IMG/VR virus record: IMGVR_UViG_2639762884_000001
DNA from: a virus
Taxonomy: Duplodnaviria > Heunggongvirae > Uroviricota > Caudoviricetes
Strand: one strand, 5' to 3'
DNA length: 64,000 nucleotides
Each line of letters begins with the position of its first letter. Position 1 is the first letter of the stretch. Below are positions 7,758 to 63,050 of this stretch, piece by piece. A program made the translations under genes and the position numbers. The notes under the pieces were generated by a model that saw only the letters and a list, made by a program, of their open reading frames with translations, made no database searches and was not told where the DNA came from.

Positions 7758-7897
7758 TAAGGGAAAAGGCTGCATCCCGCTACAGAAACGGCTGGATTGC
7801 CTTCGGGGAACGGCTGGAGGTTTTCAGAGAAACGGTCGAGTTGCCTGTGTGAATTTCGGGAAAAGGTTCGATGCCGGTTCAGGAACGGCGGCGTACC
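7758..7897. repeat. iteron-like direct repeats (RGRAAMGGCTG), cluster 1
   Basis: Six copies: gggaaaaggctg 7761, agaaacggctg 7785, gggaacggctg 7806, agaaacggtcg 7827, gggaaaaggttcg 7858, aggaacggcgg 7881; spacing about 21-31 bp. Confidence 0.7.
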
Positions 7898-8582: not shown

Positions 8583-8735
8583 TCCCAACCAAAGCCAGCA
8601 TTGCTGGCTTAATTTCTCTATAGCCGCAGGGAGGAACCTGCATATCGATCATGCACCTGATCATTATGCTTTGTAGCCGTTTTCTTACTGGTATTATTTA
8701 CGCCATTGAGAAAACAAGTTGTTTACGGAGTTGTG

Positions 8736-9047
8736 ATGAAAAAATCATTGGTTCTTGGTCTGGACAAAGACCAGAAGAGAAAAGAGAAGCCTGCACTGGT
8801 TGCTCAATTAACTTTGCTAGACATCGTTGCCAATGGAACTTCTATTCGTCTGTTCCGTGAAACAGCGGTGTCTTTCGATAAAAACACCTTTACTCGTTAT
8901 GTAATGAATGTTCGTCGCCAGCGTGGAAAAGGATGGGTGGCATTTCAAAGAATGTGGCCGGAACATCAGCTCGAACTGGCCTTGATGGAAGTTAACCGCG
9001 TGGCCCAGCAAGAAATTCAGAGAGCATCAGTGATGGCAATAGCCTGA
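8736..9047 (+). CDS. hypothetical protein (103 aa)
   Basis: ATG at 8736 preceded by GGAG; class A palindrome 8711-8724 directly upstream. The track ORF starts at an upstream TTG. Confidence 0.5.
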   Translation: MKKSLVLGLDKDQKRKEKPALVAQLTLLDIVANGTSIRLFRETAVSFDKNTFTRYVMNVRRQRGKGWVAFQRMWPEHQLELALMEVNRVAQQEIQRASVMAIA

Positions 9048-9082
9048 TAATGTGCAAGTGGTAATTAGTCGACAGTACGACA

Positions 9083-9110
9083 GCCCCGCCATCCTTACGG
9101 GGCTTTTTTG
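9083..9110 (+). terminator. Rho-independent terminator
   Basis: GCCCCG...CGGGGC stem followed by TTTTTT. Confidence 0.8.
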
Positions 9111-9173
9111 TATTGTAAGTACATACTTATGATCATAGAATATAAAAATAACCAATACACTACGGAGAGTGAA

Positions 9174-9569
9174 ATGACCGTTAAACGCGAAAAACTGACA
9201 GTTGATGTTTACTATGCCTCTGAAACCGCCGAAGGTAAGAATGTGGCAAAAATCACCGTTGTTACGTACAACACCGAAACTGGTGCCGAAGTCCAGGCCA
9301 GTACGATCGTGCGTAAAGGTGATGCCTCCGGCGGCGAGTACGCGACTCAATACCAGTCCATTCTCGATGCAACTGACCCGCTGCTGCTGAAAATCGAGAA
9401 CTACTTCCGCCAGGTTGATGAAGAGGTGTTTGAAACCATGATGAATATGGTTAACACCGTATTCGCCTCCAGCCTGAACACCAGCACCACCTGGATTGGC
9501 CAGTACGGTCTGCGCATTACCTCTGGCATTCCTGCCGACACCTTAATCCCTGAAAGCGTATTCGCTTAA
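9174..9569 (+). CDS. hypothetical protein (131 aa)
   Basis: ATG at 9174 with GGAGAG RBS; terminator downstream. Confidence 0.5.
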   Translation: MTVKREKLTVDVYYASETAEGKNVAKITVVTYNTETGAEVQASTIVRKGDASGGEYATQYQSILDATDPLLLKIENYFRQVDEEVFETMMNMVNTVFASSLNTSTTWIGQYGLRITSGIPADTLIPESVFA

Positions 9570-9579
9570 TCCTCTTTAA

Positions 9580-9606
9580 ATGGCGCGCAAACCGCGCCAT
9601 TTTATT
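9580..9606 (+). terminator. Rho-independent terminator
   Basis: ATGGCGCG-CAAAC-CGCGCCAT hairpin followed by TTTATT. Confidence 0.8.
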
Positions 9607-9686
9607 ATGCCCGATAACAATTTGTTTTCTGCCTTATCTGATTTGTGAAAATGATTTCACTGAAGCAACTTAATAAGGAAACCATC

Positions 9687-10061
9687 ATGGGACTTGATAT
9701 CTATATCGAGACACAGCCTAAAAACGATCTGAATAACGAGGCATCCAGAAAGCAGGTTGCTTACTTCCGTAAGTTCAATGCGCTCGTGGGGTGGATGGAG
9801 CGCAACGTAGGTGAAGTCGAAAATTGTGAGCTTTTAGAATTAACGATGAATGACATTTGTCTTCTGAAAGCTCATTTGATGCACATAAACGAAAGCAATT
9901 GCGAAGAGTACTTGCCTACTCGGGAAGGTTTTTTCTTCGGCAGTCAGGAGTACGACGAAGGTTACTGGCATGACGTGGATAAGCTGAAAAAACTTGTGGA
10001 AGACCTGATCAGGAACCACGACTTTAACAATAACAGACTGACCTTCTGCGCCTGGTGGTAA
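9687..10061 (+). CDS. hypothetical protein (124 aa)
   Basis: ATG at 9687 with AAGGA RBS; class A palindrome at 9616-9628. Confidence 0.5.
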   Translation: MGLDIYIETQPKNDLNNEASRKQVAYFRKFNALVGWMERNVGEVENCELLELTMNDICLLKAHLMHINESNCEEYLPTREGFFFGSQEYDEGYWHDVDKLKKLVEDLIRNHDFNNNRLTFCAWW

Positions 10062-10063
10062 AT

Positions 10064-10207
10064 ATGGGCGATTTCAAGAAACGCCTGAAGGAAAGAGCCG
10101 AGATGGTCAGAAAGCAAAACGCCTCTTCTGTCATCAGATACGCAAGGCAGTTTAGTCGCAACAACAAATCAGTTGAGGAAAAGATCCTTAGCGTAATCGG
10201 TCGATAA
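10064..10207 (+). CDS. small basic hypothetical protein (47 aa)
   Basis: ATG one codon after the preceding stop, GGTGGTAA upstream; below the track size cutoff; hairpin follows. Confidence 0.3.
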   Translation: MGDFKKRLKERAEMVRKQNASSVIRYARQFSRNNKSVEEKILSVIGR

Positions 10208-10254
10208 TTATTAAGGCCATCAGCATTGGTGGCCTTAAATGACCATCCTGTTTC

Positions 10255-10345
10255 CCGCAGGCTAAAAACACCAACCTCTTACCTCCAGGCAACCGACAAA
10301 CCCACCTGTTCCCGTCCGGCTACCGCAACTTTCCACTTTGACGCC
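10255..10345. repeat. C/A-rich direct repeats, second copy
   Basis: caggctaaaaacaccaacct / caggcaaccgacaaacccacct / cggctaccgcaactttcc, paralogous to 7111-7195. Confidence 0.65.
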
Positions 10346-10411
10346 TTATTCGTACAACGATAATTAACACCAACAAGAAAACAATTTGTTATTTACGATA
10401 AGGAATTAATC

Positions 10412-10894
10412 ATGAATTTTATCGCTACTGTAAACGCACCCGCACATGGCAATATCGCTGTAACGTTCTCTGACATTGAAAAACGAGTACTTGGTGCATG
10501 GCGCGACAATGAGACGGTAGAACTGTCAGCACAAGAAAAATGCATTATTGCACGCGACATCATTGGCAATCGTCGTTACTCGCGGGTATTTGAGAAAGCG
10601 TATGTGGTAAATTCTGGATTCGGAACGTTCGTCTTTCCGGTGCGCTCCGGGCGATTCTGCCAGTCCAAGCTGATTGAGTTCGCTACGCAGATTTCTGTCT
10701 GGATTAAAACTCAATCGTCGTTCAAATTTTCCGACGATGAAGCAGTATCGCAGGGGATGCGGATCGCCAACAATGCAATTAAATGCAAAAACATTACGTA
10801 TACCGCTGGCGTTGATACATGGAAACTGTTTTGCGCTAACTTTATGTTGAATGTATACGCAAGCAACCGCATCCACATCCTTGATGGCGTGTAA
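10412..10894 (+). CDS. hypothetical protein (160 aa)
   Basis: ORF with AAGGAATTAATC ATG; class A site 10377-10390 upstream. Confidence 0.5.
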   Translation: MNFIATVNAPAHGNIAVTFSDIEKRVLGAWRDNETVELSAQEKCIIARDIIGNRRYSRVFEKAYVVNSGFGTFVFPVRSGRFCQSKLIEFATQISVWIKTQSSFKFSDDEAVSQGMRIANNAIKCKNITYTAGVDTWKLFCANFMLNVYASNRIHILDGV

Positions 10895-10940
10895 CTGAGA
10901 AGAGGGCCAGAAACGGCCCTTTCTCTATAGCCACCAGCTG

Positions 10941-11060
10941 CCGCAGGGAAATTTTCAGAGACGGCGAGGAACGTATTCATGAGCCGACGGGAAACGGCCA
11001 GGATTTTTTCGGGAAACGGCTGCATTCGCCTTTGTGTAGAAAAAACATCGGGAAGCTGGT
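10941..11060. repeat. iteron-like direct repeats (GGGAAACGGC), cluster 2
   Basis: agagacggcg 10957, gggaaacggcc 10989, gggaaacggctg 11011, gggaagctgg 11049; the ttttcagag and ggctgcat contexts match cluster 1. Confidence 0.65.
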
Positions 11061-11481
11061 GGAATCCAACCAGCGGTTGTCGGACAGGTGAGCGGGGAAA
11101 ATCATGATGACTTTCGTCGCCTGAGACATCCAGATTTCTTTCGTAGCGTAATCACATATGTGATTAAGTGGTGTGATTATGTGAAAAATCACGCGCACAT
11201 AATACGCGAGCGGATACGGAACAAAACAAAATGCCGATCCGCGCCGACAAATAAACGCGGATCATAAAGCAAGACTAAAAGCCAATGATTAACCATACTC
11301 TATAGCGCAATATAACGCGTTTTAAGCGCGTTAATGTGTTAAGTAATGGGTATGTACTGGTAAGGATATAAAATCGCGTCTATGGCGTTATTTTGGCGCT
11401 TATTTTTATGTTGTTGGAGTGAGTTAAAGACAATAAAAAACGTGCTAATGATGGCGCGTTATGGTGGGAGTATTGGAAACG

Positions 11482-11510
11482 AAAAAAGCGCCCATAGTGG
11501 GCGCTCGATT
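11482..11510. terminator. bidirectional terminator hairpin (GCGCCCA-TAG-TGGGCGC)
   Basis: Stem 11488-11494 / 11498-11504 flanked by an A-run and T-rich tract; ends the leftward operon. An identical hairpin recurs at 11983-11999. Confidence 0.75.
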
Positions 11511-11741
11511 TTATTTGTGTAAACTGATTTTAAATCCCATTTCTACAAACGCTTTTAACATTAAAAATATATCAGCGTCGTTCACGTCTGCTTTTTTTCG
11601 CTCCTGGTCGCTCAATAAGTCAATTTTGCGCGTCGTTTCATCTATAAGCTCGACTGCGCGCCCAGCGTAACCAGCGATCCCAGCGATGCGATTAACATAA
11701 TATTCGTTATGGACGTTAACGCCAGCGATAAGAACAAACAT
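11511..11741 (-). CDS. hypothetical protein (76 aa)
   Basis: ORF at the distal end of the leftward operon. Confidence 0.4.
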   Translation of the reverse strand: MFVLIAGVNVHNEYYVNRIAGIAGYAGRAVELIDETTRKIDLLSDQERKKADVNDADIFLMLKAFVEMGFKISLHK

Positions 11742-11761
11742 GATTAAGCTCCTTAAAAAAA

Positions 11762-11965
11762 TTAAATAGAATTTTGAAGTTTTCCGATTAATGCGCTTAA
11801 ACGTAAGTATTCACGTTTGCGCTTGCAATCTCGCTTGCTGTTAAGCAAATCAGAAAACGTAAAATTTAATTGGTCGCGTTGCGCGATCAAATCATCGATT
11901 AATTCCAGTTTATAAGCGCGATACTTTGCGCGATATTCCGCGCGGATCTTGTCATAGCTGACCAT
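11762..11965 (-). CDS. hypothetical basic protein (67 aa)
   Basis: Start moved to the ATG at 11965 (GGAG RBS) because the track N-terminus would be encoded by the hairpin at 11983-11999. Confidence 0.4.
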   Translation of the reverse strand: MVSYDKIRAEYRAKYRAYKLELIDDLIAQRDQLNFTFSDLLNSKRDCKRKREYLRLSALIGKLQNSI

Positions 11966-50221: not shown

Positions 50222-51295
50222 CTATTCGTAGTTAAGCTCACCGAACAGACTGAACATCAAGTCACCATCCAAAATTTCAAAGGGCAACTCGACATACTCA
50301 TCCTTATGTCTCGGAATTGCGTTGCCGTCGTTAGGGGCATTCTTGGTATAACCTTTTACATGTTTACCGTTTTCTTTTGTATACGGCAGCACGACAATTC
50401 GACCGTGATTTTTTGAAATGATAGTTCCTTCTTTCCAGAGCGTATTGCCTCTTGAGGTGGTTTCGCTTTCGCTAGCAACTTTAACACTCCAACCTACCTG
50501 ATTTTTGTCCTCAAACCAGAAAACAAAGTTGCCAACAACCAGTACCTTTTGCCCATTCCTGAGAGCTTCATCCAGCATTCTTTTTACGCTGGCGAGTTGC
50601 AGTAACCGGTTAGCACGCGGCAGAAGCATTGAGCGAATAGTCGCTTTTGTTTTTCCCCAATGTGCAGCGCCTGATAAACCAAAACCTCTGGCTATGCGTT
50701 CTTGGTAGCAGATCTTCGCTGTCTTAGCTTTGTTGTTATATGAACATTCCCAAGTGTTAGGAGCAACGAGTTGAAGTGAAACTTGGAATTTGGGAAGAAA
50801 AACAAAATGTAAGTAAGGCATCTCGCTTAGCACGTCAAAAAGGGGTTGACGCAAAGTTTCGTAATCTGGGTTAATTATTAACTCATTTAATGTCACTCGC
50901 GGATCGTTGGCGTGTGCCTTAATTGCTTCGTTGAGCATTATATGCTCTTCATCCATGAGACGTGATTTGGCTTTGAGTGCTTTGTCAACTTTCAAACGCA
51001 ATGACTTCTTTTGAAACATAGATAGAGGAAGTTTTTCAATGTCAAAGCTCACGTTTTTATTCAGCTCTAATGCCGCTTTTCTTGCTTCAGGATAGTTATC
51101 GTAGTCGTCATCAAAAGCGTGGTTTGGCATACCACGATCAACATATCGCCGATACCAAGCAAGGGTTCCATCATTACGGAGTTTCAGACAGAACATCGAC
51201 CATTTATTCCGTTCATATTTAGGCTGAGGCCAAAAAGCCAGTTCGGGAAGGCCATATCCTGGAAGTCTATTCATGCGCATGGTGACAATATCCAC
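50222..51295 (-). CDS. hypothetical protein (357 aa)
   Basis: Long ORF convergent with the partition genes; no motif recognised. Confidence 0.5.
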   Translation of the reverse strand: MDIVTMRMNRLPGYGLPELAFWPQPKYERNKWSMFCLKLRNDGTLAWYRRYVDRGMPNHAFDDDYDNYPEARKAALELNKNVSFDIEKLPLSMFQKKSLRLKVDKALKAKSRLMDEEHIMLNEAIKAHANDPRVTLNELIINPDYETLRQPLFDVLSEMPYLHFVFLPKFQVSLQLVAPNTWECSYNNKAKTAKICYQERIARGFGLSGAAHWGKTKATIRSMLLPRANRLLQLASVKRMLDEALRNGQKVLVVGNFVFWFEDKNQVGWSVKVASESETTSRGNTLWKEGTIISKNHGRIVVLPYTKENGKHVKGYTKNAPNDGNAIPRHKDEYVELPFEILDGDLMFSLFGELNYE

Positions 51296-52353: not shown

Positions 52354-53694
52354 ATGACCGAACTTTGCCATACAGGACGCGGGCTGTCCGAAGAGTTTGA
52401 TGAAGATTTCCAGAACAGACTGACGGCATATTTTTGTCGTGATCACGAGTTTCTTACTCGTGCGGGAGATCTGGTTGTGCCTAGCCAATTTGCCAATGCG
52501 GCCAATGCCATATTGGTTAATATGGTTTCGGGCTATTACCGTATGTACAAGAGCGCGCCCTCTTCATCTGCAATTCTGGATATGCTTAAGCGTGCGAAAC
52601 GCGATAAGACTATCCGTGAGGAACTATTCGCCGATGTTGTTGCTGCGTTTAAGCGCATCCTTGCAGAAAAATTGTCCGATACCTCGTACATGGTTGACCA
52701 GGTATCAACCTTCGCAAAAAGCGTAGCGTTTGATGATGCTCTGATTAAGGCTGCTGAACTGAAAGAGAAAGGCGACTTTCAGGGGGCGATGGCAATCATG
52801 GCCAAGGTTCAGCAGATTGGATCGAACGAAGCGACCGGAATCTATGACTACTACACCTCCGCAAGTGAGCGATTGAAAGCGCGTGAATATGAGGCTTCAG
52901 AGGAGTATGTGCCAAACAGCATTACAACTGGACTCCCTCTGCTCGATAGGTTGTTGTACCAAAAAGGCTGGGCGAAGCGTGAAATGGTGCTCTTCATGGG
53001 GTTCGCTAAATCCGGTAAATCGACCGCAATGGGTGAGTTTTCCATAAACGCAACGCTTGCTGGCTACAATGTTCTGTATCTCTCGCTGGAGGTTCACACC
53101 ACCATTTTATCCGACCGTTTTGATGCAAGATTGTCGGAGACAGAAATGTCCAAGCTAGTGGAACGGCGCGATGAGGTTCATCGTAAGTTGGCAGAGTTGG
53201 GAGCCACGAAGGGGATTGGTAGTTTGTGGGTGGTTGAGCGTCCGTCAGGAAGTATGTCACCGGCAGATCTGGACCGTATGCTTAACAGCATGAAAGCCAA
53301 CGGCATGGTGCCTGACATGGTTGTTGTCGACTACGCAGATTTGATGCGTGCCAGTTATGACCTTCGTGATGATCGCGCCAACATTCGTAGTATCTACACC
53401 GATTTACGTGCTCTTTATGACAAACATAACGTTGCTGGAATCACGGCATCGCAGACAAACCGTGAAGGTGGCGCGTCAGAAGTTGCCACAATGATGCACG
53501 CCGCCGACAACATCGAAAAAGTACGTATTGCTGACCTGGTAATAACGATCAACAAAACCGAAGAAGAAGAAGCGAAAGGAGAGGCTCGTCTCTACTTTGC
53601 TGGTTCACGTAACCAGCAGGGAGGGATCAGCATTCGCGTTAAACAAAACCTCGAACAAATGCGCTTCATTGAGCGAATCTTAGACGTTACCTAA
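52354..53694 (+). CDS. DnaB-family replicative helicase
   Basis: RecA-like C-terminal domain with Walker A GFAKSGKST, VVDYADLM, SQTNREG; N-terminal helical domain. Confidence 0.85.
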   Translation: MTELCHTGRGLSEEFDEDFQNRLTAYFCRDHEFLTRAGDLVVPSQFANAANAILVNMVSGYYRMYKSAPSSSAILDMLKRAKRDKTIREELFADVVAAFKRILAEKLSDTSYMVDQVSTFAKSVAFDDALIKAAELKEKGDFQGAMAIMAKVQQIGSNEATGIYDYYTSASERLKAREYEASEEYVPNSITTGLPLLDRLLYQKGWAKREMVLFMGFAKSGKSTAMGEFSINATLAGYNVLYLSLEVHTTILSDRFDARLSETEMSKLVERRDEVHRKLAELGATKGIGSLWVVERPSGSMSPADLDRMLNSMKANGMVPDMVVVDYADLMRASYDLRDDRANIRSIYTDLRALYDKHNVAGITASQTNREGGASEVATMMHAADNIEKVRIADLVITINKTEEEEAKGEARLYFAGSRNQQGGISIRVKQNLEQMRFIERILDVT

Positions 53695-53775
53695 AAAATA
53701 AGCGTGGAGAACACCTCCACGCTTGATTCATTGGTGAAACAACTTTTCTTTTGCCAAACCACAAAAGAAAAACAC

Positions 53776-54957
53776 ATGAGCCTTTATGTTATATCAACAT
53801 TTAGGTTGGTCACAATATTGCCTGTTAAAAGTGGAATTATCGTGAGCGAGCTGAAAGAGCTAATTACCGAATTAGATTTTGAACAATGGTTGGACACTGA
53901 AGGTATCGTTTATCGACGTGGAGGCGTGAGTGCTCGCGGTCGTGAAGTGAATATCAAGGAGTGTCCGGTATGCGGCAGCTCCAACTGGAAGGTATATTTC
54001 AATCTGACCAGTGGCGTCGGCAAATGCTTCGCTGGTGATCATCCCGAAGAGATTCAGTTCAATAAGCTGGTCTTCCTCAAGCACTACAGCGGTAAATCAC
54101 GACGACAGTTCGAGGAATATGTGCAGAACGCTCTTCTTTCCCAGGGGTGGGCACCAAAGAAAGAAGAGATAGTGCTTACAAGCACAGTCGAGTTAGAGGG
54201 ACCACTTGCACTCCCTCGTCATTACGAACTTCCTATAGATGGCCGTCTTCCAGACTATCTGGTTGAACGAAACATATCGCCTGAAATGGCAAAGTATTTT
54301 GACCTACGATACTGCGTCGAAGGCAAGCACGCTTATGTAGATCCGTATACAGATCAGGTAAAAGGACAGATATTCGATATGCGAGTACTGATACCGGTTT
54401 ACGATCTGGATGGGGTAATGAAGACATTTCAGGGACGAGACATTACCGGTACAGCAGACCGCCGCTACCTCTTTCCTATGCAGCTTCCAGCTTCAGGTAA
54501 GTTTCTCTACAACGGCCATAATGCAGTTGGCAAACAGACTGTAGTTGTCTGTGAGGGGGCGTTCGATGTTATGGGAGTTAAACGAGCTATTTTTGACGAA
54601 GAAACATTACGTGATTACGTGGAACCAATAGGAACGTTCGGGATGCATCTATCTGGCAACACCACTCAGGATGCAGAAGATCAGCTGGGCGCGTTCCTGA
54701 CGCTCAAGGCGCGTGGATTACGTAATGTGATCATGATGTGGGATAGTGAAAAGCAAGCTATACGCAACACTATGGCCGCAGCCAGGCGACTCACAAGTAT
54801 TGGTCTTAATGTCAAAGTTGCGTGTTTGGGCGAGGAAGGACTCGACCCCGGCGATGCGACACCGGGGCAGATTATCAAAGCCTACTATTGCGCAAAACCT
54901 TATTCACGACAGCTTGAACTCTTAAGCAAGGTGAAAGGCATTGCAGCACTAGTTTGA
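53776..54957 (+). CDS. DNA primase (zinc-finger plus TOPRIM)
   Basis: CPVCGSSNW...GKCFAGDH zinc ribbon and VVVCEGAFD TOPRIM-like motif; the start is uncertain (track 53704). Confidence 0.75.
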   Translation: MSLYVISTFRLVTILPVKSGIIVSELKELITELDFEQWLDTEGIVYRRGGVSARGREVNIKECPVCGSSNWKVYFNLTSGVGKCFAGDHPEEIQFNKLVFLKHYSGKSRRQFEEYVQNALLSQGWAPKKEEIVLTSTVELEGPLALPRHYELPIDGRLPDYLVERNISPEMAKYFDLRYCVEGKHAYVDPYTDQVKGQIFDMRVLIPVYDLDGVMKTFQGRDITGTADRRYLFPMQLPASGKFLYNGHNAVGKQTVVVCEGAFDVMGVKRAIFDEETLRDYVEPIGTFGMHLSGNTTQDAEDQLGAFLTLKARGLRNVIMMWDSEKQAIRNTMAAARRLTSIGLNVKVACLGEEGLDPGDATPGQIIKAYYCAKPYSRQLELLSKVKGIAALV

Positions 54958-56094
54958 ACCAGTATTAGTCACATACACATTGACCGAAAATGATTTAACT
55001 TCTGTATTGAAGTTGTCAGTCATTACCGCGAGGTAGGCATTCTTGGTATCTCTGAATTGCTTCAGGATGATTTGAACGTTATCGGTGCAAACAAACGAGG
55101 TAGCCAGATTGCCTCCTTTCTCTGAAAAATCCTTCAGGAAGGTGCAGTCAACTTTGCCATCATTAGCGGTGAAGGTAGCATCATCACCCTGCCAGGTAAA
55201 TGTAGCGTTAACGCCCTTATCAATGGATTTAGCAATAAGTCGCTGGGTGGCGGATTTTGTTTTGGCTTTGGAAGCCGGCGCTCGATATTTGCCGCTTTCT
55301 TTCAGTTCTGCAATGTAATCGCAGCCTCTTTTTTCTCCTTTATCGCAAGCAGTCTGATAAAGGTCGGCTGCTTTTTTATAGTCCTTTTTTACACCTTCCC
55401 CATTCTCATACATAATGCCAAGATTGGTTATGGCGTCGGCGTTTCCAAGTTCCGCTGCCTTTTTATACCACTTAACTGCTTCTGCATCATTGCGTTTAAC
55501 GCCTAACCCATCATCGTATAGTATTCCTAATCCTATCATAGCTTCTGAACTGCCTTGGTCTGCCGCCTTTTTGTAATAAGTAAAAGCCTTTTTATAATTC
55601 TTTTTAACGCCTTTACCATATTGGTAATACGCCCCAAGAACTGAAGTTGCTTTAACATACCCGGCATCAGAGGCTAGTTTGAAGTATTTAATGGCGAGTG
55701 CATGATCTACTTTACCAAGCATCCCCTTTTGATAAATAGCACCAAGATTGTTGTAGGCTCTACCTTCACGAGCATCCCCCGCAAGTTTGTAGTACTCAAC
55801 AGCTTTATTTAGGTCTTTATCTACACCCTCGCCAAATGTGTACATAACTCCAAGTGCATAATATGCTACTTTATCTCCCTTTTCTGCAGCTAGATCAATC
55901 CACTTCTTGGCCTCAACTACATCCTTATCAAAACCATTGACACCATCAAAATAATTTGTACCTAACTCACTTTGTGCTGCGGTATCCCCTGCGGTAGCGG
56001 CTTCTATCAGCGTTTGTTTATTGTCTGCGTTAACGAATCCAGAGTTAAAAAGCAAAGTTAATGCCAGCAACGATGAAGATTTTATGTATTTCAT
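54949..56094 (-). CDS. secreted Sel1-like repeat (SLR/TPR-like) protein
   Basis: Signal peptide MKYIKSSSLLALTLLFNSGFVNA; at least eight roughly 36-aa repeats of type A..Y.KAA.QG...A...LG..Y..G.GV.KD. Confidence 0.75.
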   Translation of the reverse strand: MKYIKSSSLLALTLLFNSGFVNADNKQTLIEAATAGDTAAQSELGTNYFDGVNGFDKDVVEAKKWIDLAAEKGDKVAYYALGVMYTFGEGVDKDLNKAVEYYKLAGDAREGRAYNNLGAIYQKGMLGKVDHALAIKYFKLASDAGYVKATSVLGAYYQYGKGVKKNYKKAFTYYKKAADQGSSEAMIGLGILYDDGLGVKRNDAEAVKWYKKAAELGNADAITNLGIMYENGEGVKKDYKKAADLYQTACDKGEKRGCDYIAELKESGKYRAPASKAKTKSATQRLIAKSIDKGVNATFTWQGDDATFTANDGKVDCTFLKDFSEKGGNLATSFVCTDNVQIILKQFRDTKNAYLAVMTDNFNTEVKSFSVNVYVTNTGSN

Positions 56095-56327
56095 GTTTTT
56101 TTTTCTGTTGATATAGGATGAACAGTTTAGACGCGGCAAGCGTCAAGTGTGCGAAAAAGGGTACTTAAATTTAGTTAATATGTCAGCTTTGTTGATTTAG
56201 TTTAAGGTCGGTAAAGTTACTGGGAAACTAATAACCATAAGAAATAGTACGCCATTTAATTATTGTGGCACTGCTCGTGTTTTGATTAACTAATACCTGC
56301 GATAAATATAAATAAAGGGAAGCCAAC

Positions 56328-56741
56328 ATGAGCAAAAATAAGCTGATTTTAACAGGAGCTTTATTGTCTTTGTTTGCTTTAGTGGGGTGTAAGCCTACAG
56401 ACGAGAAGGCTATTGCTCTGGGCCAACAAGCAATTGCGGATGATATGAAAGATCCCACGTCGGTGATGTTTAGGAAAGATAAGTTTGTCAGGACTGATCA
56501 TGACGATGGGAGTGTGACAGGCTTTGTGTGCGGAGAATTGAACGCCAAAAATGGCTTTGGTGCATACGTGGGCTATCACTCATATGTTGTTGAACTCGAA
56601 ATGAAACCAAAGGGCATGTTTTCGAAAGGGGTGGTATACAAAATCCTATCGAAGTCGTTGGCACCTAATGATCCTCATGACTTACAGCGTTATAAGCAGG
56701 TCTACAGAAAGATGTGCAACAGTGAGGCTGTAGCTCATTAA
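56328..56741 (+). CDS. putative lipoprotein
   Basis: MSKNKLILTGALLSLFALVGC lipobox signal peptide; AAAGGGAAG RBS. Confidence 0.6.
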   Translation: MSKNKLILTGALLSLFALVGCKPTDEKAIALGQQAIADDMKDPTSVMFRKDKFVRTDHDDGSVTGFVCGELNAKNGFGAYVGYHSYVVELEMKPKGMFSKGVVYKILSKSLAPNDPHDLQRYKQVYRKMCNSEAVAH

Positions 56742-56804
56742 TGGTGAATGCCGGGCAGACTATAAGCCCGGCATCTTCGTATAGGGAACTATTGCGCCTA
56801 AAAT

Positions 56805-56825
56805 GATAAGTAGATACATACTTAG
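56805..56825. promoter_or_regulatory. class B motif (GATAAGTAGATACATACTTAG)
   Basis: Intergenic, upstream of 56867. Confidence 0.45.
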
Positions 56826-56866: not shown

Positions 56867-57643
56867 ATGAAAGACGAAATTCAGAAATTGGCCTGTGACA
56901 TCATTGATAAAACAGGTTTAGAAATCAGCGAGGGCAGTCGACTAGACATCATTGGAAAGGCCGTCAATACAGCAATGAATCATATCGCTGCTCGTATGGA
57001 CGAGATCCCGCTACCAGGGTTGCCTTATCTGAAAGTTGAGTTACACGTATGGGGCGAACCTTCTTGTGCACGGCGTTCTGCATTAGTTGTTTTTATTAGC
57101 AAAGAAAACCCGCTCAGTCTTAAAGTGCAGGTTGGAGCATGGCTTGATGGCAGAGTGATCTACACAAATACCGTTTTTTGTCTTTCAAACGACGAAACTA
57201 TTGAAGCGGCCATTCAAGAAGCAGTTCTAGCAATGCGCAGCAGCGGTTTGATGAAGAATAACTACGAAGAGTACTTGCGTTCGATAAGTGGTGAAAAGAC
57301 ATTATCTCTGAAAGCAGATTTCGTTACCCCGAAAAATCTGTTGGAAGTTTTGATTAATAAAGGGGCTAATAGTGCCGTAAATGTAATCAGAGAGAGTGAA
57401 TACGCGTCTCTTTGGGATATGTGCAAAAGCCAGTTGGATCTTGTGCATATCGTTGTTGATGCGGGGAAGGCTTGTGATGGCGTAATGGCGGAATTTGCTG
57501 GGAAGATGGTCAGGATTGCTAACGAATTACCGATGATTAAGCAAGAGGCTAAATCATACGCCACCAATCATATCACAGAGCTTCTTGCCCCTTATCGCTT
57601 AGAAAGCGATCAGCGCAAGATGATTAGCTGGGGAAGTTGGTAA
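56867..57643 (+). CDS. hypothetical protein (258 aa)
   Basis: ORF with GGAG RBS. Confidence 0.5.
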   Translation: MKDEIQKLACDIIDKTGLEISEGSRLDIIGKAVNTAMNHIAARMDEIPLPGLPYLKVELHVWGEPSCARRSALVVFISKENPLSLKVQVGAWLDGRVIYTNTVFCLSNDETIEAAIQEAVLAMRSSGLMKNNYEEYLRSISGEKTLSLKADFVTPKNLLEVLINKGANSAVNVIRESEYASLWDMCKSQLDLVHIVVDAGKACDGVMAEFAGKMVRIANELPMIKQEAKSYATNHITELLAPYRLESDQRKMISWGSW

Positions 57644-57710: not shown

Positions 57711-58181
57711 GTGAAAGCTGATTTGTCAAAAATCCCTTCTATTTCAGGAAATAACGGTTATTCACTTCGTTGTGAGGAAGTAAAGATAAACGGTGAGTCG
57801 GCATATTGCAGCTATTCCGTTTGCCAGCACACCATTCTTGCCTTCAAAGAAAACCGTCTTCCTCGAACTTCTTTCCAGTCGTGCGCAACCGCTATTAAAG
57901 CAGGCAAATGCAAGGCGTTAAAAATGATGGTTGAAGAGATTCGTAAAGGAGAATCTCTGTATTTCGAAGATATGACCGCACTCATTAAGGAGGTTGAAGA
58001 ACGGAATAAACAAGCCAGAACTATAAAACGAAAACGTGACAGTGTAACGATTAGTAGCATGGTTAAGAAGAGCGCCACATCACAAACAGCGATCACTGAC
58101 GTGTATGCGGCGTTGCTTGAAGAAACAACAAAAGAAACACATGAGCAAATCGATCAACATATGGAGGCAAAACAACAATGA
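57711..58181 (+). CDS. hypothetical protein (156 aa)
   Basis: GTG-start ORF; Cys-containing N-terminus and Lys-rich C-terminus. Confidence 0.45.
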   Translation: MKADLSKIPSISGNNGYSLRCEEVKINGESAYCSYSVCQHTILAFKENRLPRTSFQSCATAIKAGKCKALKMMVEEIRKGESLYFEDMTALIKEVEERNKQARTIKRKRDSVTISSMVKKSATSQTAITDVYAALLEETTKETHEQIDQHMEAKQQ

Positions 58182-59500
58182 AAAAGTTGATCGCACTTAA
58201 GCATAAGCTGGACGAAATGAAAGCTATGGGAACCAATGCAAAAAAAGAGGCATTGGCCAACATGGATGACTTTGAACAAAGCATGGTTTCATTGATGCTC
58301 AACCCTTTCATCCGTTTTGGGGTAAAGAAATACAAAGTGGCAGAGCCGCTTAGTGAGTCCGTCCCAAGTGACGAAAAAGCCATTGATGTACTGAATAAGC
58401 TGGCCTCTCGCGAGCTGACGGGGAACGCAGCAATAGCAGCTGTTGAGTCTATCGTGGCGTCAATGTGCGCCGATGGGCAGGACGTGTTCCGTCGTTTCCT
58501 CTTAAAAGACCCGAAAGCAGGTGTTGGGATTAGCCTATGCAACAAGGTTTTTGAAAATCCCATTCCGAAATTCGAGGTGCAGCTGGCGTCACCGTATAAA
58601 GAAAAAGGCGACAAATACCCCTTCAAGCCAAATCCTAAAGCAAAATGGCCGATGATTGGCAGTCTTAAGCTCGATGGTTTGCGAGTAATTTGCGAGGTTA
58701 TTGTTGACGAGGAAGAGGTTAACTTCCTTTCTCGTACTGGTAATCCAATCACGTCTCTCGATCACCTAAAGCCAGCAATGCTCGAATTAGGCAAACTTTC
58801 AGGCCACAAACACATCTTCTTCGATGGTGAAGGAACAGCCGGTTCATTTAACCAGTCTGTATCTGCATTGCGCAAAAAGAACGTGCAGGCAATTGGCGCT
58901 ATTTATCATGTTTTCGACTTCTTCCTACCGGAATGGCGGGCACAGGCTAAATCCAAAGAGTATGCAAAGACAGGTATGAAGCTGAAAGAGCGCCTGGCTA
59001 TGCTGGTGGCGTTGTTTAAAAACGATCGCAGTGAAGGCTACGCACAAGACATTCACCTGCATCCGTTCTATATCATCCATAGCCACGAAGATTTCATCGA
59101 ACGCTTCATGAAACGCCTAGACGATAACGAAGAAGGGGAGATGGGCAAAGATCCGAACTCTGTTTACGAGTTTAAACGTACCCGCAGCTGGTGGAAGTTA
59201 AAAGACGAAGATTCAGAAGATGGTGAAATTATCGACTTTGAGCCGGGCGACCCGGACTCTGGTTTTGCCAACACGCTTGGAAAAATTGTTATTCGCCTTG
59301 AAAACGGTGTGATTGTTCGTGCGAGCGGCATTAAGCATAAATATCTGGACGAGATCTGGAACAACAAAGAGAAGTACCGTGGTCGTATTGTCGAGGTTCA
59401 TTGTCACGAGAAAACGCCGGATGGCAGCTTACGCCACCCACGACTGAAATGGCCGCGTTGCTTACGCGATACAGAAGATCGAATCGGAGATAAAGAATGA
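58178..59500 (+). CDS. ATP-dependent DNA ligase
   Basis: Adenylation motif I SLKLDGLRV (KxDG), FFDGE, and WWKLK motif V. Confidence 0.8.
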   Translation: MKKLIALKHKLDEMKAMGTNAKKEALANMDDFEQSMVSLMLNPFIRFGVKKYKVAEPLSESVPSDEKAIDVLNKLASRELTGNAAIAAVESIVASMCADGQDVFRRFLLKDPKAGVGISLCNKVFENPIPKFEVQLASPYKEKGDKYPFKPNPKAKWPMIGSLKLDGLRVICEVIVDEEEVNFLSRTGNPITSLDHLKPAMLELGKLSGHKHIFFDGEGTAGSFNQSVSALRKKNVQAIGAIYHVFDFFLPEWRAQAKSKEYAKTGMKLKERLAMLVALFKNDRSEGYAQDIHLHPFYIIHSHEDFIERFMKRLDDNEEGEMGKDPNSVYEFKRTRSWWKLKDEDSEDGEIIDFEPGDPDSGFANTLGKIVIRLENGVIVRASGIKHKYLDEIWNNKEKYRGRIVEVHCHEKTPDGSLRHPRLKWPRCLRDTEDRIGDKE

Positions 59501-61086: not shown

Positions 61087-61161
61087 GATGGTGTAGCTCA
61101 GCGGTAGAGCAGTTGGCTGTTAACCAACTGGTCGGTGGTTCGAATCCACCCACCATCGCCA
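61087..61161 (+). tRNA. tRNA-Asn (anticodon GUU)
   Basis: Acceptor GATGGTG/CACCATC, D-arm TAGCTCAGCGGTAGAGCA, anticodon arm GTTGG-CTGTTAA-CCAAC, T-arm GGTGGTTCGAATCCACC; genomically encoded CCA. Confidence 0.85.
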
Positions 61162-61166
61162 ATTTA

Positions 61167-61253
61167 GGAGAGTTAGTCCGTAGAGGTAGCGGGGTAGACT
61201 GTAAATCTACTGTCATTGCGACTCGGGTGGTTCGACTCCATCACTCCCCACCA
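61167..61253 (+). tRNA. tRNA-Tyr-like (anticodon GUA), class II
   Basis: Anticodon arm GTAGA-CTGTAAA-TCTAC, T-loop TTCGACT, variable arm; acceptor stem has one mismatch; ends in CCA. Confidence 0.55.
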
Positions 61254-61257
61254 AATT

Positions 61258-61333
61258 GCCGGTTTAGCTCAGTTGGTAGAGCGCCTGCCTTGTAAGCAGG
61301 ATGTCAGCGGTTCGAGTCCGTTAACCGGCACCA
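61258..61333 (+). tRNA. tRNA-Thr (anticodon UGU)
   Basis: Acceptor GCCGGTT/AACCGGC, D-arm GCTCAGTTGGTAGAGC, anticodon arm CCTGC-CTTGTAA-GCAGG, T-loop TTCGAGT; CCA. Confidence 0.8.
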
Positions 61334-61557
61334 ATACAACGATAAGATCATTACGGTTAATCGTCGTTCATGTGCACAATGACTGGTCGAAAGGTAGTGA
61401 TCTTACCGTTGTGGTGGATTCGCAGACTGATGCGATAGCTTTCTTGGATGTTAGGGAAATGCGGCCGCAAATCTTCCCTTTCGCGAGCGGTGATCGTCCG
61501 TAGTCCTAATTGGCTGCACCGTATGCCGGAGATTCAGTACCGGCTATCACAACGGCC

Positions 61558-61644
61558 GGAGAGTAGGGAGCATGGTGCTCAAGCGGTCTTGAAAACCGTC
61601 CCATTGCGCAAGCGATGATGGTTCGATTCCATTACTCTCCGCCA
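61558..61644 (+). tRNA. tRNA-Ser-like (anticodon UGA), class II
   Basis: Acceptor GGAGAGT/ACTCTCC, anticodon arm GCGGT-CTTGAAA-ACCGT, long variable arm, T-loop TTCGATT; CCA; D-arm atypical. Confidence 0.55.
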
Positions 61645-61829: not shown

Positions 61830-63050
61830 TTAATTAAAACCGAATGAATTAAGTTCTGCTTTGAATTTATCGACCATTTTTTCAACTTCGTTTACAATTG
61901 CGTGAATCTCTTCGTCTTTTCTCGGATTAGAATTGAGGTCAAAATATGCCTTATATAAGGCATATTTTGACAAGCTTCCTTCAATATTTTCAGAGAAAAT
62001 ATTGGTACGACCATCAGTTAATAAGATATCAGCAGATCGGGAATTTAAATTATATTTATAGTAAATCTTTATTAGTCTGCTTATCTCTTTTTCATTCTTG
62101 ATTACCCTCTGTCTTTTACCAGCAATATTAAGACTCCAGCCTACATAACTAGTCAGATCGGAATTAAACTTACACACTTCCGCATCAGCTTTTTCCATAT
62201 TTAGATTAATATTATTTCTCATGTGTAGCGGTAATTCGTTGAATTTTTGCTGTAAATGCTGTTTGCAGGGATTGTTGTAAGACCACAGAATTGCGAACGT
62301 AGCTCTTTGCATCCGGGTATTCAGATCGATGTTAAAGTTCTCACGATCACGAATCATTTCATCTACATAAAACTCTACAGCTTTTCGGTATTCTTTGTTA
62401 AAGATCTCGGTAACATACATTTCTAAATAATGGACTTTCGAGATTGCCTCATCAAAAAAAAGCTCACTCTCAAAGAAGTTGTATTTATTTAAGAGATTAG
62501 AAAGTCTACTTAAGTCATAGGTTTTATTATTTTCAATATTAAGACCAAAAATGGCAATTAACAGACTTACTTTATGATTAATACTGCTACGTAATTGAGC
62601 TATATAAATTCTCTTTTCATCTTCTGCTGATGACAGTAGATAAAACTCTTTATCTAAATAATTTAAAATTAGAATTATGTGATTTACATATTTAATGTAA
62701 ATAGGTTGTTTTGTTACATAATAATAAATGCTTTTGATGGAATTAATGCTCAATTTCGTATTAAACTCTTTGTCATTCAACAAAGTGTTATTTACGTCCT
62801 CAAGTAATTTATCATGTTGCTCTAGTAATATTCCGTACCATTCTTTAAAAGAGGCTTTTTTCATTTCAAGAAGTGAATCTGCCGTTAATTGTGTTGCCTT
62901 CATTGCAGCTTTTGCACTATTTCTTGCCTCATAAGCAGCCCAAGCAGTAACAAAAGTAGCAAGTGAACCTATAGCCTCTTTGTATTCTTTAGCCACATCC
63001 CAAAAAATAATAGTTATTACACACAATATGAGAATTAATATTAAAGGCAT
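61830..63050 (-). CDS. AT-rich orphan protein with N-terminal transmembrane helix (406 aa)
   Basis: Low-G+C Lys/Asn/Ile/Tyr-rich ORF; N-terminus MPLILILILCVITIIFW; opposite in orientation to its neighbours and bracketed by terminators. Confidence 0.6.
   Translation of the reverse strand: MPLILILILCVITIIFWDVAKEYKEAIGSLATFVTAWAAYEARNSAKAAMKATQLTADSLLEMKKASFKEWYGILLEQHDKLLEDVNNTLLNDKEFNTKLSINSIKSIYYYVTKQPIYIKYVNHIILILNYLDKEFYLLSSAEDEKRIYIAQLRSSINHKVSLLIAIFGLNIENNKTYDLSRLSNLLNKYNFFESELFFDEAISKVHYLEMYVTEIFNKEYRKAVEFYVDEMIRDRENFNIDLNTRMQRATFAILWSYNNPCKQHLQQKFNELPLHMRNNINLNMEKADAEVCKFNSDLTSYVGWSLNIAGKRQRVIKNEKEISRLIKIYYKYNLNSRSADILLTDGRTNIFSENIEGSLSKYALYKAYFDLNSNPRKDEEIHAIVNEVEKMVDKFKAELNSFGFN

What the first reader, a model, noticed from the sequence alone, without database searches (positions are those of the whole stretch)
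54949..56741. Secreted Sel1-repeat protein and divergent lipoprotein as a moron pair inside the replication region
A signal-peptide protein with at least eight Sel1-like repeats, transcribed opposite to the flanking helicase, primase and ligase genes, is paired with a divergently transcribed lipoprotein gene. Secreted Sel1-repeat proteins in bacteria often mediate host interaction or envelope-associated protein-protein contacts; carriage by a phage suggests lysogenic conversion or superinfection exclusion.
Basis: partly seen in the sequence, partly recalled or inferred. Interest (0 to 1): 0.45.

Follow-up and report, generated by a model that had tools for sequence, protein, structure and literature searches.

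The report
Two exported accessory proteins in phage-plasmid
A variable slot behind the primase gene of an E. coli SSU5/pHCM2-type phage-plasmid holds two independently acquired genes for envelope proteins, a periplasmic Sel1-repeat protein and a small outer-membrane lipoprotein; their functions are untested, and they look like ordinary phage add-on ("moron") genes that may protect the carrier cell.

Summary
The two ORFs are real. The window is an SSU5/pHCM2-type phage-plasmid of E. coli.

**Sel1 gene, 54949-56094 (-), 381 aa**
- Sec signal peptide, then six Sel1-like repeats with two capping helices (not eight or more).
- Ends in a conserved ~97-aa all-beta domain with no Pfam or PDB relative.

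**Lipoprotein gene, 56328-56741 (+), 137 aa**
- Has a lipobox (LVG|C).
- Predicted cystatin/NTF2-like fold.
- Belongs to a large family with no Pfam model.

**Accessory but not a unit**
- Collinear relatives have the slot between primase and the next gene in five states: empty, lipoprotein only, Sel1 only, both, or unrelated cargo.
- One plasmid keeps only deletion scars of both genes.
- The lipoprotein family also sits at the classic HK97 gp15 moron site, between the tail chaperone and tape-measure genes, in unrelated prophages.

**Selection and function**
- Both genes are under purifying selection (dN/dS 0.04-0.14).
- No function is known for either.
- The best guess, at low confidence, is that each protects the lysogen's envelope independently (superinfection exclusion or toxin/hydrolase neutralisation).

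The "pair" reading and the repeat count are not. Interest is modest.

The parts
54949..56094 (-). Gene for a 381-aa exported Sel1-like-repeat protein. The mechanical ORF runs up to a TTG at 56139, but the ATG at 56094 is the likely start. Its stop codon (54949-54951) overlaps the 3' end of the convergent primase gene by 9 nt.
   Evidence: -: Pfam Sel1, E=1.1e-53.
- full-length match to phrog_8741, function unknown.
- RefSeq annotates 381 aa.
- dN/dS 0.14.
56026..56094 (-). Sec-type signal peptide, aa 1-23 (MKYIKSSSLLALTLLFNSGFVNA), with predicted cleavage after VNA.
   Evidence: -: hydropathy and the -3/-1 rule.
- equivalent N-termini in all full-length homologues.
- pLDDT <50 for residues 1-21.
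55294..56025 (-). Alpha-solenoid of six Sel1-like repeats plus N- and C-terminal capping helices (aa 24-267). Cys250 and Cys258 lie in and after the last repeat. Repeats 4-6 form a recombinant, mosaic block among alleles.
   Evidence: -: 14 helices, pLDDT >90.
- top Foldseek hits are c5321/EsiB (37% id), Oxalobacter Sel1 proteins, LceB, HcpC and LpnE.
- dS 0.63 in repeats 4-6 against 0.03 in the C-terminal domain between allele classes.
54952..55245 (-). Conserved C-terminal all-beta domain (aa 284-381) with eight predicted strands and two invariant cysteines (C317, C336). It has no relative in Pfam or PDB and is the most conserved part of the protein.
   Evidence: -: strands, pLDDT 60-73.
- 64-78% identity across genera.
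- only a sub-threshold DUF3617 hit, E=0.18.
- no PDB sequence match.
- dN/dS 0.05.
56095..56327 (.). 233-bp AT-rich (34% GC) divergent intergenic region. It has two conserved blocks, one next to each start codon, and a variable middle. It presumably holds the promoters of both genes.
   Evidence: -: GC content.
- alignment of six alleles.
- no strong sigma-70 consensus found, so promoter assignment is inconclusive.
56328..56741 (+). Gene for a 137-aa lipoprotein. Signal peptide and lipobox L-V-G-C21 lie at 56328-56390. Lys at +2 suggests outer-membrane sorting. The mature part has a helix / 4-stranded sheet / helix (cystatin/NTF2-like) fold with conserved C68 and C130.
   Evidence: -.
- phrog_2320 and five other PHROGs, all of unknown function.
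- 1346 representative proteins at E<=1e-3.
- motif LKDPxSAxFR...VCGEVNAKNxFGAYxG.
- no Pfam or PDB match.
- pLDDT 86.
- dN/dS 0.04.
56748..56774 (+). GC-rich hairpin (9-bp stem, 9-nt loop) 7 nt after the lipoprotein stop codon. It is terminator-like but lacks a U-tract. The hairpin travels with the lipoprotein gene in other phage-plasmids.
   Evidence: -: centroid -18 kcal/mol, z = -2.3.
- a hairpin at the same place in pHCM2-like, Cronobacter and Enterobacter loci, with the arms swapped (GCCCGGC...GCCGGGC).
54943..56805 (.). The variable segment as a whole (1,863 bp). It is replaced by 29 bp in phage Cyrano. Its right edge abuts a conserved inverted repeat, ATAAGTA-GATACA-TACTTAG, at 56806-56825.
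   Evidence: -: junctions.
- the conserved repeat.
- about 150 E. coli plasmids show the short, empty form.

Best explanation
SHOWN
- The window is an SSU5/pHCM2-type phage-plasmid.
- The short spacer between its primase gene and the next conserved gene (phrog_4248) is a cargo slot that turns over by insertion, recombination and deletion.
- In this E. coli lineage the slot holds two separately acquired accessory genes.
- (i) The first is a lipoprotein gene with its own downstream hairpin. In other genera it sits alone in the sense orientation, directly behind the primase gene.
- (ii) The second is a low-GC, antisense gene for a Sec-exported protein made of six Sel1-like repeats plus a conserved disulfide-containing beta domain. 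It sits between primase and the lipoprotein gene and overlaps the primase 3' end by 9 nt.
- Both proteins are kept by purifying selection.

INFERRED (LOCALISATION)
- The Sel1 protein is a soluble periplasmic protein.

INFERRED (FUNCTION, LOW CONFIDENCE)
- Each acts alone as a stoichiometric binder that protects the carrier cell's envelope.
- The lipoprotein would mask or plug an outer-membrane component used by incoming phages (Llp/Cor-like logic), or otherwise block entry.
- The Sel1 protein would use its solenoid groove to capture an envelope-acting enzyme or toxin, such as a tail-borne or host peptidoglycan lytic transglycosylase or a delivered toxin, with the conserved beta domain providing a fixed anchor or second contact.

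My confidence in the anatomy and accessory status is about 0.9. My confidence in the protective, exclusion-type function is about 0.35. The single confidence value given for this explanation (0.4) reflects the functional claim, not the anatomy.
For: ELEMENT IDENTITY
- 99% DNA matches to ~110-kb non-mobilizable E. coli plasmids.
- 92-93% flank matches to phages Cyrano, CMS-2020a and PhiR41_1, and 80% to SSU5.

SLOT STATES
- Empty: Cyrano and about 150 plasmids.
- Lipoprotein only: L007-L010 and L020.
- Sel1 only, with the same 9-nt primase overlap: L019.
- Both genes: about 55 plasmids.
- Unrelated antisense gene in SSU5 itself.
- Sulfatase, maturase and IS.
- Deletion scar that keeps the 3' ends of both genes: L003.

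EXPORT AND SELECTION
- Export signals are present, and cysteines come in conserved pairs.
- Purifying selection acts on both genes.
- The Sel1 gene has foreign composition, GC3 37%.

MOBILITY
- Lipoprotein relatives lie between the tail-assembly chaperone and tape-measure genes in E. coli, Enterobacter and Serratia prophages.
- That is the site of the HK97 gp15 exclusion moron (PMC3594210).
- Another lipoprotein relative lies next to ogr in a P2-like prophage.
- Sel1 homologues with the same C-terminal domain lie beside IS fragments together with a captured primase fragment (E. whittamii), behind prophage tail-fibre-like genes (Leclercia), on a Pantoea plasmid, and in a CdiA orphan-toxin island.

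PRECEDENTS FOR THE PROPOSED LOGIC
- The periplasmic Sel1-like protein IltA directly inhibits lytic transglycosylase MltF (PMC10746161).
- Periplasmic T4 Spackle inhibits the tail lysozyme in superinfection exclusion (PMC7677548).
- T5 Llp is a small outer-membrane lipoprotein that blocks FhuA (PMC9586334).
Against: - There is no functional evidence of any kind.
- Neither protein hits any PADLOC defence model in a meaningful way. The only hit is a 22-bit repeat-type match to PtuA.
- All PHROG matches are to families of unknown function.
- There is no detectable homology to Llp, Cor, Spackle, SieA or gp15.
- No convincing sigma-70 promoter was found in the spacer, so expression in the plasmid-prophage state is unproven.
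- In relatives the lipoprotein gene appears co-transcribed with replication genes, which suggests early lytic expression rather than lysogenic expression.
- The C-terminal domain model has only moderate confidence (pLDDT 60-73, from 9 sequences).
- The closest solved relative of the repeat region is EsiB, a host-directed IgA-binding protein.
Confidence: 0.4

Rival explanations
1. Orphan immunity gene. The periplasmic Sel1 protein would neutralise a toxin delivered into the periplasm by competitors, in the manner of the Sel1-like Tli5/PA5086-5088 or Klebsiella Sel1 immunity proteins against T6SS phospholipase D effectors. The phage-plasmid would then spread resistance to interbacterial attack.
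For: - The protein is a periplasmic Sel1-like protein of the right general kind.
- PA5086 and PA5087 appear among structural and sequence matches.
- Sel1-type immunity proteins for T6SS phospholipases are documented (PMC7108748).
- One homologue lies in an island of CdiA orphan toxin modules.
- The gene is stand-alone, mobile, and has mosaic repeats.
Against: - No phospholipase, T6SS or other effector gene lies next to any homologue I inspected.
- The PA5086/7 matches are far weaker than those to EsiB, HcpC and LpnE (E of 1e-11 to 1e-12 against 1e-65 to 1e-90). Any Sel1 protein would give such matches.
- The known Tli5 proteins matched here are 270-274-residue chains and their matches cover only the repeat region; I did not check whether they carry any C-terminal domain.
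- CdiI immunity proteins are normally cytoplasmic (my knowledge), so the CDI context is probably coincidental.
Confidence: 0.12
2. Host-interaction (lysogenic conversion) factor. The Sel1 protein would be released or surface-exposed and bind an animal host molecule, as EsiB/c5321 binds secretory IgA and as Helicobacter Hcp and Legionella LpnE act on host cells.
For: - The best solved relatives are c5321/EsiB of uropathogenic E. coli (37% identity over 246 columns), HcpC, LpnE and LceB.
- EsiB binds sIgA and impairs neutrophil activation (PMC3735183).
- Carrier plasmids come from human, poultry, pig and cattle isolates.
Against: - Full-length family members also occur in plant- and environment-associated Pantoea, Leclercia and Pseudenterobacter.
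- The protein has only a Sec signal and no recognisable route across the outer membrane.
- The similarity is confined to generic repeats, and EsiB lacks the conserved C-terminal domain that defines this family.
- The gene is present in only about 1% of complete E. coli genomes, with no evident pathotype link.
Confidence: 0.12
3. The two products are a functional couple after all, analogous to the IltA/LiiA inhibitor/anti-inhibitor pair. The Sel1 protein would inhibit a peptidoglycan lytic transglycosylase, and the outer-membrane lipoprotein would bind the Sel1 protein and tune that inhibition. This could serve the element's own lysis timing or block entry of rival phages.
For: - In P. aeruginosa a periplasmic Sel1-like protein (IltA) inhibits MltF, and an outer-membrane lipoprotein (LiiA) sequesters IltA (PMC10746161).
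- Here a periplasmic Sel1 protein and an outer-membrane lipoprotein are adjacent, share a divergent control region, and are co-inherited in about 55 E. coli plasmids.
Against: - Each gene is maintained without the other at the same site in other genera.
- The lipoprotein family spreads alone in prophages.
- The architectures differ. IltA has 3 repeats and no beta domain. LiiA is 262 aa with a helical domain plus an OmpA-like domain, against a 116-aa cystatin-like mature lipoprotein here.
- The PA3978-type homology was not tested directly.
Confidence: 0.1
4. The relevant product is the antisense transcript rather than the protein. Transcription of the Sel1 gene runs into the convergent primase gene and dampens lytic replication genes while the element is kept as a plasmid.
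For: - The Sel1 stop codon overlaps the primase 3' end by 9 nt in both E. coli and Enterobacter lineages.
- No terminator-like site was found on the minus strand downstream of the Sel1 stop.
Against: - Strong purifying selection on the protein sequence (dN/dS 0.05-0.14) and conservation of the protein in non-phage-plasmid contexts show that the protein itself is selected.
- Most relatives do without the gene.
- At best this is a side effect.
Confidence: 0.05

Closest known systems
Phage morons that encode envelope proteins (HK97 gp15, lambda Bor/Lom, phi80/N15 Cor, T5 Llp)
   Same: - These are dispensable genes inserted between conserved phage genes.
- They are present or absent among collinear relatives and differ in composition.
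- Their products are targeted to the envelope.
- Lipoprotein relatives occupy the very site of the gp15 moron, between the tail chaperone and tape-measure genes.
   Different: - There is no sequence homology to any of these proteins. All PHROG hits are to families of unknown function.
- Own promoter and terminator are not demonstrated.
- In related phage-plasmids the lipoprotein gene looks co-transcribed with the replication genes.
- No exclusion phenotype is known.
EsiB / c5321 of extraintestinal E. coli, and Helicobacter HcpC (secreted Sel1-like repeat proteins)
   Same: - The repeat fold is the same, and these are the best solved matches: 4bwr at 37% identity, TM 0.59; 1ouv.
- They have an N-terminal signal peptide.
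- A cysteine pair sits in a repeat, as in Hcp proteins.
   Different: - EsiB is 467 aa with more repeats and lacks the C-terminal beta domain.
- This family is defined by that domain and extends to environmental Enterobacterales.
- IgA binding was not tested.
IltA (PA3978) / LiiA (PA5502) lytic-transglycosylase inhibitor / anti-inhibitor of P. aeruginosa
   Same: A periplasmic Sel1-like protein plus an outer-membrane lipoprotein acting in the envelope. It shows that small Sel1 proteins can be direct enzyme inhibitors (PMC10746161).
   Different: - Domain architectures differ for both partners.
- The genes here are not obligatorily linked.
- No homology or interaction has been shown.
Tli5-type Sel1-like T6SS immunity proteins (PA5086-PA5088; Klebsiella Sel1 proteins)
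   Same: Periplasmic Sel1-like repeat proteins that work by stoichiometric binding of an incoming enzyme. The solved members give weak structural and sequence matches.
   Different: - No effector gene is nearby in any context.
- The matches to the solved members cover only the repeat region of this protein, not its C-terminal beta domain.
- The similarity is no better than to any Sel1 protein.

Membership tests
Sel1-like repeat (SLR) proteins, Pfam PF08238 | Tandem 36-44-aa repeats that score above the Pfam gathering threshold | tested here: met
   178.2 bits against a cut-off of 30.7, with six significant repeats.
Sel1-like repeat (SLR) proteins, Pfam PF08238 | Alpha/alpha hairpin solenoid structure | tested here: met
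   The AlphaFold model has 14 helices at pLDDT >90. Top Foldseek hits are all SLR crystal structures at E down to 1e-15.
Bacterial lipoproteins (Lgt/LspA substrates) | Signal peptide ending in a lipobox [LVI][ASTVI][GAS]C | tested here: met
   The sequence is MSKNKLILTGALLSLFALVG-C21. The Cys is invariant in 65 homologues. Two family members hit Pfam LPAM_1.
Bacterial lipoproteins (Lgt/LspA substrates) | Actual acylation, and outer-membrane sorting (no Asp at +2) | not testable with these tools
   The +2 residue is Lys, which by the Lol-avoidance rule (my knowledge) predicts outer-membrane sorting. Labelling or globomycin assays are needed.
Moron (Juhala/Hendrix sense) | Extra DNA between genes that are adjacent in related phages | tested here: met
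   Cyrano and about 150 plasmids lack 54943-56805.
Moron (Juhala/Hendrix sense) | Nucleotide composition different from the neighbours | tested here: met
   For Sel1, GC is 41.6% and GC3 37.4%, against a backbone of 46-49% and 45-51%. The lipoprotein is only marginally different, 43.2% and 46.4%.
Moron (Juhala/Hendrix sense) | Own promoter and terminator, with expression from the repressed prophage | tested here: inconclusive
   - No good sigma-70 match in the spacer, but there are conserved blocks next to both start codons.
- The hairpin after the lipoprotein gene lacks a U-tract.
- No terminator follows the Sel1 gene.
- Expression data are lacking.
Tli5-type SLR immunity proteins of T6SS | Encoded next to the cognate Tle5/PldB-type effector, or in an orphan immunity array | tested here: not met
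   No such gene is found beside the window copy or beside homologues in loci L005, L006, L014-L016 and L019.
IltA/LiiA inhibitor/anti-inhibitor system | A ~3-repeat SLR protein and a 262-aa lipoprotein with a helical N-domain plus an OmpA-like C-domain | tested here: not met
   Here there are six repeats plus a beta domain and a 137-aa cystatin/NTF2-like lipoprotein. The IltA/LiiA architecture is taken from PMC10746161.
Known superinfection-exclusion lipoproteins (T5 Llp, Cor) | Sequence or profile homology to the family | tested here: not met
   The only PHROG hits are six families annotated 'unknown function'. There is no PDB sequence hit. BFVD structural hits are unnamed.
Known anti-phage defence systems (PADLOC) | A match to a defence-protein model | tested here: not met
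   There is no hit for the lipoprotein. For Sel1 there is only a 22-bit repeat-type hit to PtuA, with no significant stretch.

The most novel reading that the evidence does not exclude
The Sel1/beta-domain protein would be a new class of phage-borne periplasmic 'gatekeeper'. It would capture the peptidoglycan-cutting or channel-forming tip of incoming phage tails, or a host lytic transglycosylase they depend on, and so block DNA entry. In the E. coli lineage the neighbouring outer-membrane lipoprotein would cooperate with it as a tether or modulator (IltA/LiiA-like). That would make a two-part envelope exclusion system spread by phage-plasmids.
Probability: 0.08. Interest if true: 0.7.

Novelty: new member of a known kind. 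Interest (0 to 1): 0.3.

Why it matters
- SSU5/pHCM2-type phage-plasmids occur in about 5% of complete E. coli genomes, and also in S. Typhi, Enterobacter, Citrobacter, Klebsiella and Cronobacter.
- The slot behind their primase gene is a defined cargo site. What it carries decides what these elements give their hosts.
- If either envelope protein blocks phage entry or neutralises a toxin, it would affect phage-therapy host range and strain competition.
- The lipoprotein family is large (more than 1,300 clusters at 50% identity), has no Pfam model, and recurs at classic moron sites. One functional assignment would therefore annotate many prophage genes.
- The conserved C-terminal beta domain of the Sel1 protein is an undescribed domain.
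- As it stands, this is an ordinary accessory-gene locus with unknown function.

Tried and rejected
**Family and structure searches**
- Pfam, NCBIfam and PADLOC scans of the lipoprotein and of the Sel1 C-terminal domain found nothing above threshold. There was only a sub-threshold DUF3617 hit at E=0.18.
- NCBIfam hits of the Sel1 protein to MerG, MotX, AlgK and ExoR are far below their cut-offs. They are generic repeat matches, so I rejected them as family assignments.
- Profile searches of both the lipoprotein family and the C-terminal domain against PDB sequences found nothing.
- The BFVD search returned unnamed proteins.
- AFDB50 was unavailable.
- The Foldseek search with the full Sel1 model is dominated by the repeats, so the beta domain could not be searched on its own.

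**Relationships and neighbourhood**
- hhalign of the C-terminal domain against the lipoprotein family shows no relationship (probability 0.6%).
- Gene neighbourhoods of Sel1 homologues outside phage-plasmids showed no recurrent partner gene. I judged the CDI-island context in Pseudenterobacter to be coincidental.

**Selection**
- I looked for positive selection in the repeats. The high divergence of repeats 4-6 is matched by very high dS (0.63) with dN/dS 0.12. That indicates recombination of a diverged block, not diversifying selection.

**RNA and regulatory signals**
- Rfam and tandem-repeat scans of the region found nothing relevant.
- Promoter scans were inconclusive.

**Literature**
- Full-text searches found no paper linking SSU5/pHCM2 elements with Sel1/TPR genes, or Sel1 proteins with superinfection exclusion.

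Full report
**What the element is.** The 2.5 kb around the finding matches about 110-kb, non-mobilizable E. coli plasmids at 96-99% over its full length. It matches the temperate phages Cyrano, CMS-2020a and PhiR41_1 at 92-93%, but only on the flanks. Salmonella phage SSU5 matches the primase part at 80%. The neighbouring ORFs are a DnaB-like helicase (52354-53694), a DnaG/Toprim primase (53704-54957), two conserved genes of unknown function (phrog_4248 at 56867-57643 and phrog_5055 at 57711-58181) and an ATP-dependent ligase (58178-59500), all on the + strand. The window is therefore an SSU5/pHCM2-type phage-plasmid, and the finding lies in its replication module.

**The observation.** Both ORFs exist at the stated coordinates. 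The Sel1 ORF runs mechanically from a TTG at 56139. The ATG at 56094 gives the 381-aa product that RefSeq annotates in all near-identical plasmids.

- Pfam Sel1 scores 178 bits with six significant repeats.
- The AlphaFold model (mean pLDDT 82, above 90 over residues 30-260) has 14 helices. That is six complete repeats plus one capping helix at each end.
- 'At least eight repeats' is therefore an overcount.
They form eight predicted beta strands (pLDDT 60-73) with two invariant cysteines.
- The N-terminus MKYIKSSSLLALTLLFNSGFVNA|DNK has the three regions of a Sec signal and V-x-A at -3/-1. Every full-length homologue has an equivalent signal.
- The mature protein has exactly two cysteine pairs (C250/C258 and C317/C336), which fits an oxidising compartment.

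The second ORF (137 aa) has the lipobox L-V-G-C21 and Lys at +2. The two genes diverge across 233 bp of 34% GC DNA.

**Accessory status and the 'pair' question.** In phage Cyrano the primase gene is followed after 75 bp by the phrog_4248 homologue. Homology with the window stops at 54942 and resumes at 56806, so 1,863 bp here replace 29 bp there. About 150 E. coli plasmids show the same short form. The slot is not simply filled or empty. I found these states:

- **Lipoprotein only.** pHCM2-like contigs (61% identical protein; the protein's cluster includes S. Typhi records), Cronobacter plasmids (59%) and an Enterobacter plasmid carry only the lipoprotein gene. It is in the sense orientation, 32-44 bp after the primase gene.
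- **Sel1 only.** Thirty Enterobacter/Citrobacter plasmids have the Sel1 C-terminal domain (72% identical) behind the primase gene. In the one I inspected (p4-20710) the 417-aa Sel1 gene stands alone, antisense, with the same 9-nt overlap with the primase 3' end.
- **Other cargo.** SSU5 itself has an unrelated antisense 321-aa gene (phrog_22938). One E. coli plasmid has a sulfatase, its maturase and an IS element.
- **Deletion scar.** Another plasmid retains only the 3' ends of both genes around a 1.6-kb deletion.

Both genes are thus genuine add-ons, but they are independent modules. The divergent pair is specific to an Escherichia sublineage, with about 55-60 plasmids in PLSDB. In complete E. 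coli genomes the cassette is found in 62 of 5,426, always on plasmids. That compares with 252 genomes carrying this primase.

**Are they functional genes?** Among six E. coli alleles, dN/dS is 0.14 for the Sel1 gene, 0.05 for its C-terminal domain, and 0.04 for the lipoprotein. Repeats 4-6 differ sharply between allele classes, but with dS 0.63 against 0.03 in the C-terminal domain. This is a recombined block, not positive selection. Homologues also differ in repeat number: 335, 381 and 409-422 aa. The Sel1 gene has GC3 of 37% against 45-51% in its neighbours. The lipoprotein gene is close to the backbone, which fits a longer residence at this site.

**The Sel1 protein family.**
- Only about ten database clusters share the full architecture, all from Enterobacterales (Escherichia, Enterobacter, Pseudenterobacter, Pantoea and others).
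- A genome scan with the C-terminal domain found five loci.
- In E. whittamii the gene sits with a fragment of an SSU5-type primase next to IS3 remnants, which is chromosomal capture of phage-plasmid DNA.
- In Leclercia a frameshifted copy follows prophage tail-fibre-like genes.
- In Pantoea it is on a 387-kb plasmid.
- In Pseudenterobacter it lies among CdiA orphan-toxin fragments.
- No partner gene recurs across these contexts.
- The repeat region resembles c5321/EsiB (37% identity), Oxalobacter Sel1 proteins, LceB, HcpC and LpnE. The T6SS immunity proteins PA5086/7 match much more weakly.
- The C-terminal domain has no Pfam, PHROG-annotated or PDB relative.

**The lipoprotein family.**
- An exhaustive search found 1,346 representative proteins at E<=1e-3.
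- They are mostly 110-140-aa lipoproteins that share LKDPxSAxFR...VCGEVNAKNxFGAYxG and two conserved cysteines.
- None has a Pfam domain and there is no PDB relative.
[quoted passage not shown] That is the position of the original HK97 gene 15 moron, whose product is a superinfection-exclusion protein (PMC3594210).
- Another member follows ogr in a P2-like prophage.
- A GC-rich hairpin follows the gene in the window. It is kept, with swapped arms, in pHCM2-like, Cronobacter and Enterobacter elements.

**Mechanism.**
- *Shown:* export signals, accessory status, independent inheritance, purifying selection and association with mobile elements.
- *Inferred:* periplasmic location for the Sel1 protein and outer-membrane (inner leaflet) location for the lipoprotein.
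- *Best guess:* each protein protects the carrier's envelope by binding something.
- For the lipoprotein, the phage-moron distribution and the Llp/Cor precedent point to blocking entry of other phages.
- For the Sel1 protein, documented activities of exported bacterial Sel1 proteins are inhibition of a lytic transglycosylase (IltA, PMC10746161), neutralisation of T6SS phospholipases (PMC7108748) and binding of host IgA (EsiB, PMC3735183).
- The family occurs in plant- and environment-associated genera, which favours a bacterial-envelope target over an animal one. The absence of any adjacent effector weakens the immunity reading.
- I put about 0.35 on a protective or exclusion-type role, and 0.1-0.12 each on the immunity, host-interaction and IltA/LiiA-like couple alternatives.
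- Promoters could not be assigned. In relatives the lipoprotein gene looks co-transcribed with replication genes, so the timing of expression is open.
- No terminator follows the Sel1 gene, so its transcript probably reads antisense into the primase gene. This is inference only.

**Comparison and novelty.** This is a new, uncharacterised instance of a well-known kind of thing: phage accessory genes that encode envelope proteins at a recombination-prone slot. Public records already annotate it as 'tetratricopeptide repeat protein' and 'hypothetical protein', and PHROGs lists both as unknown-function families. Full-text searches found no study of it. It is not a member of any known defence, exclusion, immunity or IltA/LiiA family by the tests I could run. 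What is new is modest:

- the definition of the cargo slot and its states;
- the undescribed C-terminal domain;
- the recurrent moron-site placement of a large lipoprotein family that has no Pfam model.

**Verdict.** Interest is 0.3.

Noticed in passing
window 61830-63050 (-): A 406-aa antisense ORF with an N-terminal hydrophobic helix and very low GC (~32%). It lies between the tRNA cluster and a glutaredoxin-like gene. It has no Pfam or PADLOC hit and matches phrog_18168 (unknown function). It looks like another moron and a candidate defence or exclusion gene.
   Followed up: partly
window 61087-61644 (+): A cluster of four tRNA genes (Asn-GTT, Tyr-GTA, Thr-TGT, Ser-TGA). Phage Cyrano has Asn, Thr and Ser at the equivalent place, so the Tyr gene is extra here.
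   Followed up: no
window 50222-51295 (-): A second antisense gene (357 aa, phrog_22329, unknown function) just upstream of the replication module. Relatives carry different genes at this position: a DUF2971 protein in SSU5 and L008, and other 255-351-aa proteins elsewhere. This is a second variable slot.
   Followed up: partly
window 56806-56825: An inverted repeat, ATAAGTA-GATACA-TACTTA(G/T), followed by TTTTxTGTAAGAATA. It is conserved in Cyrano and in pHCM2-like, Cronobacter and Enterobacter elements, directly upstream of the phrog_4248 gene. It marks the right edge of the cargo slot and may be an operator or promoter element.
   Followed up: no
L014 (Escherichia whittamii NZ_JACSQI010000004.1), locus 3500-7000: A chromosomal copy of the Sel1 gene (91% identical C-terminal domain). 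It sits with a fragment of an SSU5-type primase and IS3-family remnants between yciC/yciB-like and yciA/tonB-like genes. This is phage-plasmid DNA captured in a chromosome.
   Followed up: partly
L002 (E. coli p1919D62-2, NZ_CP046008.1), locus 6460-11700: The same slot behind the primase gene carries a sulfatase, an anaerobic sulfatase-maturating enzyme and an ISVsa5 transposase. The phage-plasmid slot can therefore take up metabolic cargo.
   Followed up: no
L005 (Pseudenterobacter timonensis), locus 3700-11900: The Sel1 homologue lies among truncated CdiA (Fil_haemagg_2, PT-VENN) orphan toxin modules with small downstream immunity-like ORFs and a NERD-domain gene.
   Followed up: partly
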